This document shows, piece by piece, positions 27,599 to 29,518 of a stretch of 64,000 nucleotides of DNA. Each line of letters opens with the position of its first letter. Within the stretch, counting starts at the first letter, position 1. A program made the position numbers and the translations under genes. Source of the DNA: a virus. Where the stretch lies: the IMG/VR virus record IMGVR_UViG_3300025466_000012, positions 64,001-128,000 of that record. One strand, 5' to 3'. Below the pieces are notes generated by a model. The model searched no databases. It saw nothing but the letters and a program-made list of their open reading frames with translations, and was not told where the DNA came from.

Positions 27599-28594
27599 AT
27601 GGCCTATTGCAGGATAGTCAATCCCGGAGTGCTACGCTACAGTTGTAGCCAATATTCTCGACAGGCACTACAACACAGCTCGGCACTGGTTCTGTCAGAT
27701 CTGTCTAAAAATTCATTGACTGTGCATGATTTGACCAGCAATCTGTTGCTGATAGATTTCCTGGCCGAAGGACATGACCCCGACGTGATCGACCCCTTGA
27801 TCAAGTATCTCAGCACCATGATCGACGTTGCCCAGATACGGGTGTTGTTCAATGCCGCGGTCGACACCGACTCATTGCCCTACCGCGCCAGGTCATTTGT
27901 GACCCATTTTGCCAGTTGGGATGGAAGATTTGTCAATGACGGAGATCAAGCCAATGTGGTATTGGAACAAAAATTCCTGTGTCCGGTACGCAGGCCAAGT
28001 CTGGGACGGGCCTTGTTTGTCAGTCAATTGTTGTCCGCAGTGCCCAATGTGCGTGCCAGTTTTGGCAGCGGTTTTCCTACACACAGCCGCGATTTTCAAA
28101 AACATTTCCCCGATCATGTGTTGCCCATACTGTTCGATGGCGATGCTCAACAATACCAACACAATTTGGCGTCGGACCTGTTCCGCACCTGCCTGTTCAA
28201 CATCGTGGTCGAAACCAGCAATCAGATCGATACTGAAGGATGGACCAGCATTTTTATAACAGAAAAAACATTCAAGGCGTTTGATCTGTATCAGATACCT
28301 GTATGGTTCGCGGTTCCAGGTCTGGTCAATCAGGTGCGTCGGCTGGGATTTGATCTGTTTGATGATCTGGTTGATCACAGCTATGATTCTGAACCGGATC
28401 CCAAAATTCGATCCAGTCGGGTGATAGCTCAGATACAACAGCTGGACGCTGATCACAGTCTAGCAGATTGTCAACAGTTGCGCACACAAGTATGGCCACG
28501 GCTGTTGGCCAACCGAGACCGGCTGGACCAACTGACTGCTCAATACAATCACACCCAGGATCAGTTGATAGCCGAATTGATTGACACGCAGTGA
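27599..28594 (+). CDS. glycosyltransferase-like protein (ITEK family)
   Basis: NIVVETS...IFITEKTFK...GFDLFDD.VDHSYD, resembling GT-B C-terminal motifs. Confidence 0.5.
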   Translation: MAYCRIVNPGVLRYSCSQYSRQALQHSSALVLSDLSKNSLTVHDLTSNLLLIDFLAEGHDPDVIDPLIKYLSTMIDVAQIRVLFNAAVDTDSLPYRARSFVTHFASWDGRFVNDGDQANVVLEQKFLCPVRRPSLGRALFVSQLLSAVPNVRASFGSGFPTHSRDFQKHFPDHVLPILFDGDAQQYQHNLASDLFRTCLFNIVVETSNQIDTEGWTSIFITEKTFKAFDLYQIPVWFAVPGLVNQVRRLGFDLFDDLVDHSYDSEPDPKIRSSRVIAQIQQLDADHSLADCQQLRTQVWPRLLANRDRLDQLTAQYNHTQDQLIAELIDTQ

Positions 28595-28611
28595 AAAAAC
28601 TGTTATAAATA
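28581..28611 (+). promoter_or_regulatory. overlapping sigma70 and T4-type late promoter
   Basis: TTGACA 28581-28586, 17 nt, then TATAAATA 28604-28611. Confidence 0.75.
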
Positions 28612-28615
28612 AACA

Positions 28616-28674
28616 TGTAGATGCCGATGGTCGGGTCTACACAGTCATCTTGCTTAATAAAGGAGAAAAATATG
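28616..28674 (+). promoter_or_regulatory. ROSE-like RNA thermometer in hsp20 5' UTR
   Basis: Hairpin 28616-28641 plus UCUUGCUU/AAGGAGA SD-occluding hairpin with bulged G. Confidence 0.7.
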
Positions 28675-29103
28675 ACAAACACTTTAACCTTACGGTCTCT
28701 TGACCTTCCTTCGATACACAAATTTGGTATCGGATTTGATTCCATGTTTGATGAACTCAATCGAATACAGAATCAACAAACCAACTATCCGCCGTACAAT
28801 ATAGTGAAAATTTCAGAAGACAACTTCCTGATTGAAATCGCTGTGGCCGGATTTGCTCGAGATGAAATCGATATCCAGTTGGAAAATCGTGTGTTGACTG
28901 TGCGAGGAACCAAGACAGCATCAGCACATGACTATCTACACAAAGGTATCAGTGATCGTGATTTCGTAAGAAATTTCACCTTGGCCGAGCATGTGGAAGT
29001 GAATCATGCAGTGCAAAAAGATGGCATCTTGACTATCAATCTGGAACGTATCATTCCAGAGGAAAAGAAGCCAAAGACCATTGCTATCACTTACTCAAAG
29101 TAG
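28672..29103 (+). CDS. small heat-shock protein Hsp20 (IbpA-like)
   Basis: YPPYNI, IEIAVAGF, YLHKGI..RDF.R.F.LAEHVEV, DGILTI. Confidence 0.95.
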   Translation: MTNTLTLRSLDLPSIHKFGIGFDSMFDELNRIQNQQTNYPPYNIVKISEDNFLIEIAVAGFARDEIDIQLENRVLTVRGTKTASAHDYLHKGISDRDFVRNFTLAEHVEVNHAVQKDGILTINLERIIPEEKKPKTIAITYSK

Positions 29104-29119
29104 TAAACTAGTGTAAATA

Positions 29120-29142
29120 CAGTGGGCGAGTCTCGCCCACTG
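29120..29142. other. GC-rich hairpin without U-tract between hsp20 and clpS
   Basis: CAGTGGGCGA-GTC-TCGCCCACTG perfect 10-bp stem directly after TAAATA (29114-29119). Confidence 0.7.
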
Positions 29143-29170
29143 CTATACAACCAAGGTAAAAGGAACCAGC

Positions 29171-29479
29171 ATGTCACAATCAGACGCCATAACAAAAATA
29201 AAAATCAATCACGAGTTGGCAGAACCACCCATGTTCAAGGTCATATACCTCAATGATAGCCTGACCACCATGGAGTTCGTGATTGAAACCTTGATGAGTT
29301 TTTTTAATTATACCACCGAAACTGCTGTCAAGATCACCGAAGATATACATACTCTAGGTGCAGCCACTGTGGCAGTGTTGCCATATGAAATAGCCGAGCA
29401 AAAGGGTATCGAAGTCACAGTACATGCTCGCACACAAAATTTCCCGCTACAGATCAAGCTAGAACCCGAAGTGCCATAA
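29171..29479 (+). CDS. clpS: Clp protease adaptor ClpS
   Basis: PPMFKVIYLND..TTMEFV, IH..G.A.VAV.PYEIAEQK, FPLQIKLEP. Confidence 0.92.
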   Translation: MSQSDAITKIKINHELAEPPMFKVIYLNDSLTTMEFVIETLMSFFNYTTETAVKITEDIHTLGAATVAVLPYEIAEQKGIEVTVHARTQNFPLQIKLEPEVP

Positions 29480-29518
29480 AACTAGTACAGCATAACACCC
29501 GGGCGGACAACTCTCAAT

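What the first reader, a model, noticed from the sequence alone, without database searches (positions are those of the whole stretch)
28604..28674. ROSE-type RNA thermometer in a phage small heat-shock gene leader
Seen: after TATAAATA, a first hairpin (TGTAGA-TG-CCGA-TGG-TCGG-G-TCTACA, 28616-28641), then UCUUGCUU-AAUA-AAGGAGA (28648-28666). This pairs U-A, C-G, U-A, U.G, bulged G, C-G, U-A, U-A across the Shine-Dalgarno. Established: U(U/C)GCU with a bulged G opposite the SD is the ROSE hallmark of proteobacterial sHSP mRNAs. Inference: the phage senses temperature post-transcriptionally, independent of host sigma32.
Basis: partly seen in the sequence, partly recalled or inferred. Interest (0 to 1): 0.72.

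Follow-up and report, generated by a model that had tools for sequence, protein, structure and literature searches.

The report
ROSE-like RNA leader on phage hsp20
A large uncultured lake phage puts in front of its own small heat-shock chaperone gene the two-hairpin RNA leader that bacteria use as a translational thermometer; related and cultured phages keep it too, but its response to temperature has not been tested.

Summary
After TATAAATA (28604-28611) come hairpin I (28616-28641) and hairpin II. In hairpin II, UCUUGCUU pairs with the Shine-Dalgarno AAGGAGA and G28652 is bulged.

The gene is an IbpA-type HSP20, 42% identical to E. coli IbpA. The same leader precedes hsp20 in 79 of 80 related IMG/VR loci and in all six named phages checked (Melnitz, S-SM1, S-RIM44, HTVC115P, Phosso, C48C1). 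In some loci it also precedes dnaK.

- **Hairpin I:** 9 of 11 pairs show compensatory changes.
- **Hairpin II:** it is invariant, so conservation supports it but covariation cannot.
- **Rfam:** ROSE_3 is the only ROSE model that matches, at 24.7 bits, below its 43-bit threshold.
- **Promoter:** phage-type, with no sigma-32 box.
- **Expression:** lake metatranscriptome contigs cover only this gene.

Temperature sensing is inferred. IbpA-style autoregulation through the leader is a live alternative, because the protein keeps the Tyr and Arg needed for it.

This scan has already reported the same element on other phage DNA several times. I found no paper describing it. I class it as a new variant of a known kind.

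The parts
28581..28586 (+). TTGACA, a sigma-70 -35-like hexamer lying 17 nt before TATAAA (28604-09). It overlaps the end of the upstream ORF.
   Evidence: Read from the sequence. The promoter scan missed it because it requires T at position 6 of the -10 hexamer. It is not conserved in relatives.
28604..28611 (+). TATAAATA, a phage promoter box of the T4 late type. The inferred transcription start is about 28617.
   Evidence: ATAAATA occurs 26 times in the 200-kb record. Twenty of these lie 5-80 nt upstream of a same-strand gene start, a zone that makes up 4.6% of positions. TAAATA is present in 52 of 61 related leaders, 0-5 nt before hairpin I. The start site is inferred, not mapped.
28616..28641 (+). 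Hairpin I: a stable 5' hairpin of 11 pairs with bulged G28623 and loop UGG.
   Evidence: Fold. 97% of cells are paired and 9 of 11 pairs have compensatory changes. RNAalifold recovers it independently. Two-state Tm about 83 C. It matches the ROSE_3 consensus GAUGCCGA..UCGGGUC.
28644..28676 (+). Hairpin II: a labile hairpin that encloses the SD and the start codon. The outer helix is 28644-47 with 28673-76. The inner helix is 28648-55 with 28660-66. The loop is AAUA.
   Evidence: It is the MFE structure at 10-37 C: dG -8.2 kcal/mol at 10 C and -2.7 at 37 C, Tm about 50 C. 94-98% of cells are paired in 61 leaders, but the columns do not vary.
28650..28654 (+). UUGCU, the ROSE motif U(U/C)GCU, with bulged G28652.
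   Evidence: Present in 61/61 leaders. Two leaders, and the cyanophage leaders, carry the UCGCU form.
28660..28666 (+). Shine-Dalgarno sequence AAGGAGA.
   Evidence: AGGAG is present in 61/61 leaders. At least 3 of 4 letters of GGAG are paired in the 15 C fold of all 61.
28672..29103 (+). hsp20 / ibpA-like small heat-shock protein gene, 143 aa.
   Evidence: Pfam HSP20, 2e-18. 42% identical to E. coli IbpA over 137 residues. Lake metatranscriptome contigs cover 28640-29105 only.
29120..29142 (+). A 10-bp G+C-rich hairpin after the hsp20 stop codon, preceded by TAAATA (29114-19). It may end the hsp20 transcript, head the clpS mRNA, or both.
   Evidence: Fold z = -2.88. There is no U-run, so the terminator scan found nothing.

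Best explanation
The 55-nt leader (about 28617-28671) is a short, two-hairpin ROSE-like translational control element on the mRNA of a phage-encoded IbpA-type small heat-shock protein.

Transcription starts from a phage-type promoter (TATAAATA), not a sigma-32 promoter. Hairpin I is a stable 5' clamp that probably aids folding and mRNA stability. Hairpin II is marginally stable. It hides the Shine-Dalgarno sequence behind UUGCU with bulged G28652, and hides the AUG behind GUCA:UGAC. At low temperature the ribosome cannot bind; warming opens the hairpin and the chaperone is made.

Shown: the anatomy, its conservation, its homology to bacterial ROSE-like leaders, and expression of the gene in lake samples. 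Inferred: the transcription start, melting within the physiological range, and the effect on translation.
For: - Exact anatomy.
- ROSE_3 is the only ROSE model that matches in the 501 nt searched (24.7 bits, E 0.0058), and this is its only match in the 200-kb record (E 5.6e-4); the hairpin I letters are shared.
- The gene is IbpA-like.
- 79 of 80 IMG/VR relatives carry the leader directly before hsp20, at 48-88 bits.
- All six named phages checked carry it, at 26-52 bits. Melnitz reaches 34.1 bits on ROSE_3.
- Hairpin I covaries.
- The hairpin II motifs are invariant although synonymous sites vary.
- In all 61 leaders hairpin I is much more stable than hairpin II: median Tm 82 C against 51 C, and dG37 -12.4 against -2.7 kcal/mol. 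The SD is paired in 61/61 and the AUG in 55/61 at 15 C.
- This is the same stable-I, labile-II layout that was proven by probing, toeprinting and reporters in Pseudomonas ibpA (PMC3669281).
- The same leader precedes dnaK in related phages, as expected of a heat-shock control module.
- Four lake RNA libraries give contigs confined to 28640-29105.
Against: - No experiment has been done on any phage copy.
- The score is below Rfam's gathering threshold here and in 26 other phage loci.
- Hairpin II has no compensatory changes, and RNAalifold does not predict it.
- The single-sequence fold is not significantly better than shuffles.
- Computed SD accessibility hardly changes between 5 and 50 C. The same was true of the E. 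coli ibpA control, so the calculation is uninformative rather than negative.
- The RNA contigs begin at 28640-28652, so they do not show hairpin I in the transcript. Contigs cannot define ends in any case.
Confidence: 0.6

Rival explanations
1. Aggregation sensor rather than thermometer. The phage sHSP binds its own leader and represses translation, as E. coli IbpA does. When unfolded proteins (for example a flood of virion proteins late in infection) titrate the sHSP away, translation resumes. This could act alone or on top of thermosensing.
For: - IbpA of E. coli, Cedecea and Vibrio represses its own ROSE-like 5' UTR by direct binding. This needs R93 and Y34 (PMC10474464).
- The phage protein aligns Y39 with Y34 and R96 with R93. 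Both are invariant in 16 diverse phage sHSPs.
- The near-invariant UGC/GG motif occurs in both hairpins, including the temperature-insensitive hairpin I. A protein site would explain that.
- The phage lives in lake water, where heat shock is rare.
Against: - The paper notes that R93 is also common in alpha- and gamma-proteobacterial IbpAs, and Y34 is highly conserved too, so keeping them is weak evidence.
- No binding data exist.
- The RNA determinants of IbpA binding are not defined, so the leader cannot be scored for them.
Confidence: 0.2
2. A constitutive element. Hairpin I protects the 5' end of the mRNA and hairpin II merely damps translation to a fixed level, with no sensing.
For: - 5' hairpins stabilise mRNAs, as discussed for Pseudomonas hairpin I (PMC3669281).
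- Hairpin II is weak: dG37 -2.7 kcal/mol.
- No temperature response could be shown in silico.
Against: - A simple attenuator would not need the exact U(U/C)GCU/bulged-G geometry to stay invariant in 61 leaders and in distant phages.
- It would not need to be copied onto dnaK.
- The same geometry is the proven sensor in bacteria.
Confidence: 0.12
3. Timing switch of the T4 type. The hairpin blocks translation only on read-through transcripts from upstream promoters, while transcripts from the phage's own promoter lack one arm and are translated.
For: Other notes of this scan on this genome describe hairpins that bury start codons next to late-promoter boxes (unchecked).
Against: - The promoter box (28604-11) lies upstream of both hairpins, so every transcript from it contains the whole of hairpin II.
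- The arrangement is the same in 52 of 61 relatives.
Confidence: 0.03

Closest known systems
Short ROSE-like RNA thermometers of Pseudomonas ibpA (Krajewski et al. 2013, PMC3669281; Rfam ROSE_3, RF02523)
   Same: - 55-62 nt leader of an ibpA-type gene.
- Two hairpins: a stable G+C-rich hairpin I with the letters GAUGCC..GGGUC, and a labile hairpin II.
- U(U/C)GCU lies opposite the SD with a bulged G.
   Different: - The score is 24.7 bits against a threshold of 43.
- The core is flanked by A-U and U-A pairs instead of the G-C clamps stressed for Pseudomonas.
- The AUG is paired (GUCA:UGAC), whereas it is free in Pseudomonas.
- The promoter is phage-type, not sigma-32.
- It is carried by a virus.
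- Hairpin II is predicted to be weaker than the E. coli ibpA 3' hairpin (dG37 -2.7 against -4.6 kcal/mol).
Classical ROSE elements of rhizobia and the enterobacterial ibpA thermometer (three to four hairpins)
   Same: The same U(U/C)GCU/SD core and the same kind of gene. Alphaproteobacterial loci fetched here (L112-L114) show it as GUUGCU..AGGAGG with the AUG inside the stem.
   Different: - They are longer, with more hairpins.
- No Rfam ROSE model other than ROSE_3 matched.
- The phage model does not detect them or E. coli ibpA.
IbpA autoregulation through the ibpA 5' UTR (PMC10474464)
   Same: A ROSE-like leader on an IbpA-type gene. The protein keeps the equivalents of Y34 and R93.
   Different: No binding or repression has been tested for any phage sHSP.
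Known phage RNA thermometers: lambda cIII, SPbeta blyA (fourU), and a gut Caudoviricetes sigma-70 gene (fourU), as listed in PMC11182007
   Same: A cis-acting mRNA structure in a phage that controls ribosome access.
   Different: Those are not ROSE-like and do not sit on chaperone genes. That 2024 paper counts only two before its own, the third.

Membership tests
ROSE-like RNA thermometers (class as defined in the literature) | Lies in the 5' UTR of a small heat-shock (IbpA/class A) gene | tested here: met
   Pfam HSP20, 2e-18. 42% identity to E. coli IbpA. The element ends at the start codon.
ROSE-like RNA thermometers (class as defined in the literature) | [quoted passage not shown] | tested here: met
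   The fold of the window and of 61 relatives gives two hairpins with the SD in the second.
ROSE-like RNA thermometers (class as defined in the literature) | U(U/C)GCU anti-SD imperfectly paired with the SD, with a bulged G | tested here: met
   UUGCU at 28650-54 with G28652 bulged in the MFE. The motif is present in 61/61 leaders and the G column is invariant. The pairing is predicted, not probed.
ROSE-like RNA thermometers (class as defined in the literature) | Hairpin melts and translation rises with temperature | not testable with these tools
   Nearest-neighbour profiles were flat, even for the E. coli ibpA control. Only the relative instability of hairpin II could be computed.
ROSE-like RNA thermometers (class as defined in the literature) | Sigma-32 promoter upstream (usual in bacteria, not defining) | tested here: not met
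   No sigma-32-like box in the window or in 61 relatives. TATAAATA / TATAATAAATA is there instead.
Rfam ROSE_3 (RF02523) | Covariance-model score at or above the gathering score of 43 bits | tested here: not met
   24.7 bits for the window. None of 20 related loci passes. The best named phage scores 34.1 bits.
Rfam ROSE models other than ROSE_3 | Any covariance-model match | tested here: not met
   No match at E up to 10 in 28400-28900.
IbpA-type self-regulated leader | The sHSP keeps the Arg (R93) and Tyr (Y34) needed for mRNA binding | tested here: met
   R96 and Y39 align with them and are invariant in 16 phage sHSPs. The criterion comes from PMC10474464.
IbpA-type self-regulated leader | The protein binds the leader and represses translation | not testable with these tools
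   Needs purified protein and RNA.
T4-type late promoter | TATAAATA box a few nt before the transcript start, used genome-wide before late genes | tested here: inconclusive
   The box is present. ATAAATA sits upstream of genes in 20 of 26 cases. However, no start site is mapped, no late sigma factor was looked for, and Pfam Gp23 was not found in the 58%-complete record.

The most novel reading that the evidence does not exclude
Large phages run their own heat-shock-like regulon without sigma-32. One portable ROSE-like RNA operator is placed behind phage promoters on hsp20, dnaK and other genes. It responds both to temperature, tuned to cold lake water by a weak hairpin II, and to the free pool of the phage sHSP. 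Chaperone supply would then track the folding load of virion production.
Probability: 0.25. Interest if true: 0.8.

Novelty: new variant of a known kind. Interest (0 to 1): 0.6.

Why it matters
According to a 2024 paper (PMC11182007), only three RNA thermometers are on record for phages, and none is ROSE-like or controls a chaperone. Here the bacterial heat-shock RNA switch sits on a phage chaperone gene under a phage promoter. It is kept in hundreds of uncultured phages and in cultured ones that can be tested, including Methylophilales phage Melnitz, cyanophages S-SM1 and S-RIM44, Pelagibacter phage HTVC115P and Sinorhizobium phage Phosso.

If it works, phages adjust chaperone synthesis after transcription, independently of the host's heat-shock sigma factor. 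It would also explain why standard Rfam annotation misses these elements: all of them score below threshold. The finding is not unique to this window; the scan has met it repeatedly.

Tried and rejected
- **Accessibility against temperature (5-50 C).** Partition-function SD accessibility was flat for the phage leaders and for the known E. coli ibpA thermometer, so it is not informative.
- **First melting script.** It returned a ceiling value for everything and was discarded. It was replaced by two-state extrapolation.
- **Promoter and terminator scan.** It found nothing at the leader. Its -10 rule excludes TATAAA.
- **TATAAATA count in the window alone.** Not enriched (2 found, 1.7 expected). 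Only the position of ATAAATA/TAAATA relative to genes across the 200-kb record is telling.
- **Rfam at gathering threshold on 20 related loci.** No hits.
- **Phage model R1 on 151 bacterial genomes of the class of one MAG.** Three hits at 26-30 bits, none before an sHSP gene, so they are chance. R1 also misses E. coli ibpA, Alcanivorax and alphaproteobacterial ROSE leaders.
- **Bacterial-genome search for the sHSP.** The nearest 'bacterial' hits sit in Bacteroidota, Planctomycetota, Marinimicrobia and archaeal MAGs. They carry the phage-type leader and promoter and are most likely phage contigs binned by mistake. They give no host.
- **Pfam Gp23 in the record.** No match, so I do not call the phage T4-like on my own evidence.
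- **RNA contigs.** The parts of 28300-29500 without RNA contigs prove nothing by themselves.
- **Moraphage paper (PMC12619734).** It mentions phage HSP20 but not its leader.

Full report
**What is there.** The finding lies in the 77-nt spacer between an ORF with no Pfam match (27599-28594) and a 143-aa gene (28672-29103). That gene is a Pfam HSP20 protein (2e-18) and is 42% identical to E. coli IbpA over 137 residues. Its neighbours are clpX, ribosomal protein S21 and clpS. The window is part of a 199,683-bp IMG/VR virus record judged 58% complete.

The minimum-free-energy fold of 28612-28690 shows three things:
- Hairpin I lies at 28616-28641, with 11 pairs and bulged G28623.
- An outer 4-bp helix, GUCA 28644-47 with UGAC 28673-76, puts the start codon inside the structure.

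**Is it more than chance?**
- Alone, the sequence folds only slightly better than shuffles (z = -1.67). That is expected of a switch that must be marginally stable.
- A search of IMG/VR with the protein found at least 584 viral stretches that encode relatives. Of the 80 loci kept (55-72% identity), 79 have the same leader directly before the gene.
- In the 61 distinct leaders, each folded on its own, hairpin I and an SD-closing hairpin II recur.
- On a MAFFT alignment, hairpin I is 97% paired with compensatory changes in 9 of 11 pairs. The whole structure is 96.5% paired, against about 45% when partners are slid by 1-3 columns. RNAalifold recovers hairpin I independently.
- Hairpin II is 94-98% paired, but its columns do not vary, so it has no covariation and RNAalifold does not call it.
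- Its support is conservation. U(U/C)GCU, AGGAG and AUGAC are present in 61/61 and CUUGCU in 58/61. Third positions of codons for invariant residues in the same genes are only 62% conserved.
- A covariance model built from these leaders (R1) hits the phage's own 200 kb once, here, at 80 bits.

**Relation to ROSE.**
- Rfam ROSE_3 (RF02523) matches 28615-28677 end to end at 24.7 bits (E 0.0058 in a 501-nt search, 5.6e-4 for the record). This is the only ROSE model that matches, and its only match in the record. It is below the gathering score of 43.
- The match is not just the SD. Hairpin I shares GAUGCCGA..GUCGGGUC with the consensus almost letter for letter.
- The published Pseudomonas ibpA thermometers are 61-62 nt long with two hairpins. 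Hairpin I is G+C-rich and temperature-insensitive. Hairpin II is labile, with U(U/C)GCU opposite the SD, and is sufficient for regulation (PMC3669281).
- The phage leaders show the same division of labour in a nearest-neighbour calculation. Hairpin I has median Tm 82 C and dG37 -12.4 kcal/mol. Hairpin II has median Tm 51 C, dG37 -2.7 and dG15 -7.4. Hairpin I is the more stable in 61 of 61. The SD is paired in 61/61 and the AUG in 55/61 at 15 C.
- Hairpin II is predicted to be weaker than the 3' hairpin of E. coli ibpA (dG37 -4.6). That would suit a lake phage, but this is inference.
- Differences from Pseudomonas are a paired AUG, no G-C clamps around the core, and a phage promoter.
- No related phage locus reaches the Rfam threshold, which explains why routine annotation does not flag these elements.

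**Spread.**
- R1 finds the element directly before hsp20 in all six named phages I fetched: Methylophilales phage Melnitz (52 bits; ROSE_3 34.1 bits), Synechococcus phage S-SM1 (38), cyanophage S-RIM44 (34), Pelagibacter phage HTVC115P (29), Sinorhizobium jumbo phage Phosso (29) and phage C48C1 (26). The cyanophages use the UCGCU form.
- Eight IMG/VR loci have a second copy about 2 kb upstream. In L048 that copy precedes a 631-aa Pfam HSP70 protein (1.4e-255), that is, dnaK. The other seven second copies were not examined.
- The leader therefore behaves as a portable module for chaperone genes, not as baggage of ibpA.
- In bacteria the phage model is nearly silent. It misses E. coli ibpA, Alcanivorax and alphaproteobacterial ROSE leaders. 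Its three weak hits in 151 sampled genomes are not before sHSP genes.
- The best 'bacterial' protein hits sit in MAGs of Bacteroidota, Planctomycetota, Marinimicrobia and an archaeon. They carry the phage leader and promoter and are probably mis-binned phage contigs.

**Promoter and expression.**
- TATAAATA (28604-11) ends 4 nt before hairpin I.
- Across the record, 20 of 26 ATAAATA and 49 of 87 TAAATA lie 5-80 nt upstream of a same-strand gene start, a zone that holds 4.6% of positions. So this is a real promoter element of the phage.
- It equals the T4 late consensus (my own knowledge). I did not find Pfam Gp23 and did not look for a late sigma factor.
- In this window TTGACA (28581-86) lies 17 nt before TATAAA, so host sigma-70 might also use the site. 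That hexamer is not conserved in relatives.
- Relatives have TAAATA in 52 of 61 leaders and TATAATAAATA in 33. None has a sigma-32-like box.
- Contigs from four lake-water metatranscriptome libraries, from a close strain (3-4 differences), cover 28640-29105 and nothing else in 28300-29500. This fits a separately transcribed, well-expressed hsp20 mRNA. Contigs cannot fix ends, and they do not reach hairpin I.

**Mechanism and rivals.**
- The best-supported reading is a ROSE-like switch. Hairpin II closes the SD and AUG in the cold and opens on warming. Hairpin I acts as a stable 5' clamp.
- What is missing is any measurement. My attempt to compute SD accessibility against temperature was flat, even for the E. 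coli control.
- The main rival, which may coexist, comes from recent work. E. coli, Cedecea and Vibrio IbpA bind their own ROSE-like 5' UTR and repress translation, and this needs R93 and Y34 (PMC10474464).
- The phage protein keeps both residues (R96, Y39), and they are invariant in 16 diverse phage sHSPs. In a phage such a loop would sense the folding load of late infection rather than heat.
- One unexplained detail fits a protein site. Both hairpins carry the same U.G / bulged G / C-G motif, and in the covarying hairpin I that motif alone is nearly invariant (notebook).
- A constitutive attenuator or stabiliser is possible but does not explain the invariant ROSE geometry or its reuse on dnaK.
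- A T4-style early/late transcript switch is unlikely because the promoter lies upstream of both hairpins.

**Novelty.**
- Full-text searches found no paper on ROSE-like elements in phages.
- A 2024 paper counts lambda cIII and SPbeta blyA as the only two phage RNA thermometers before its own third, and none of the three is ROSE-like (PMC11182007).
- Earlier follow-ups of this scan reached the same reading on other phage DNA, including hsp20, dnaK and cultured phages. I re-tested those points here on my own data.
- The element is a new, phage-borne variant of a known kind of switch. It is not unique to this window.

Noticed in passing
window 29114-29142: TAAATA is followed at once by a 10-bp G+C-rich hairpin (z = -2.88) between the hsp20 stop and clpS (ATG 29171). 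This is the same promoter-box-plus-5'-hairpin layout as before hsp20. It may end the hsp20 transcript, head the clpS mRNA, or both.
   Followed up: partly
L048 970-1037 and 1029-2924 (also L047, L052, L057, L059, L061, L062, L080): Some related phage contigs have a second ROSE-like leader about 2 kb upstream of hsp20. In L048 it sits directly before a full-length dnaK (Pfam HSP70, 1.4e-255). The other loci were not checked for the downstream gene.
   Followed up: partly
L127 1501-1569, ORF 1561-1836: A phage-like contig binned in a Haliscomenobacter MAG has a ROSE-like leader (38.5 bits) before a 91-aa gene with no Pfam match. By eye the protein looks like a small helical, phasin-like protein. 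This genome has a phasin-like gene noted elsewhere by the scan.
   Followed up: partly
L081-L085, L088, L089, L098: MAGs labelled Bacteroidota, Pirellulales, Neomarinimicrobiota, Alphaproteobacteria and Poseidoniales (an archaeon) hold contigs with phage-type hsp20, leader and ATAAATA box. They are probably phage contigs binned into cellular genomes. One MAG has three such contigs.
   Followed up: partly
window 28622-28624 with 28634-28635, and 28651-28653 with 28662-28663: Both hairpins contain the same U.G / bulged-G / C-G motif. In hairpin I it is almost invariant while the surrounding pairs covary. The reason is unknown.
   Followed up: partly
window 28581-28609: TTGACA, 17 nt, then TATAAA overlaps the late-type box, so the hsp20 promoter of this phage could be read by host sigma-70 as well. 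Relatives do not share the -35 hexamer.
   Followed up: no
L120 1-240: In cyanophage S-RIM44 the gene directly upstream of hsp20 is annotated as the translational repressor RegA.
   Followed up: no
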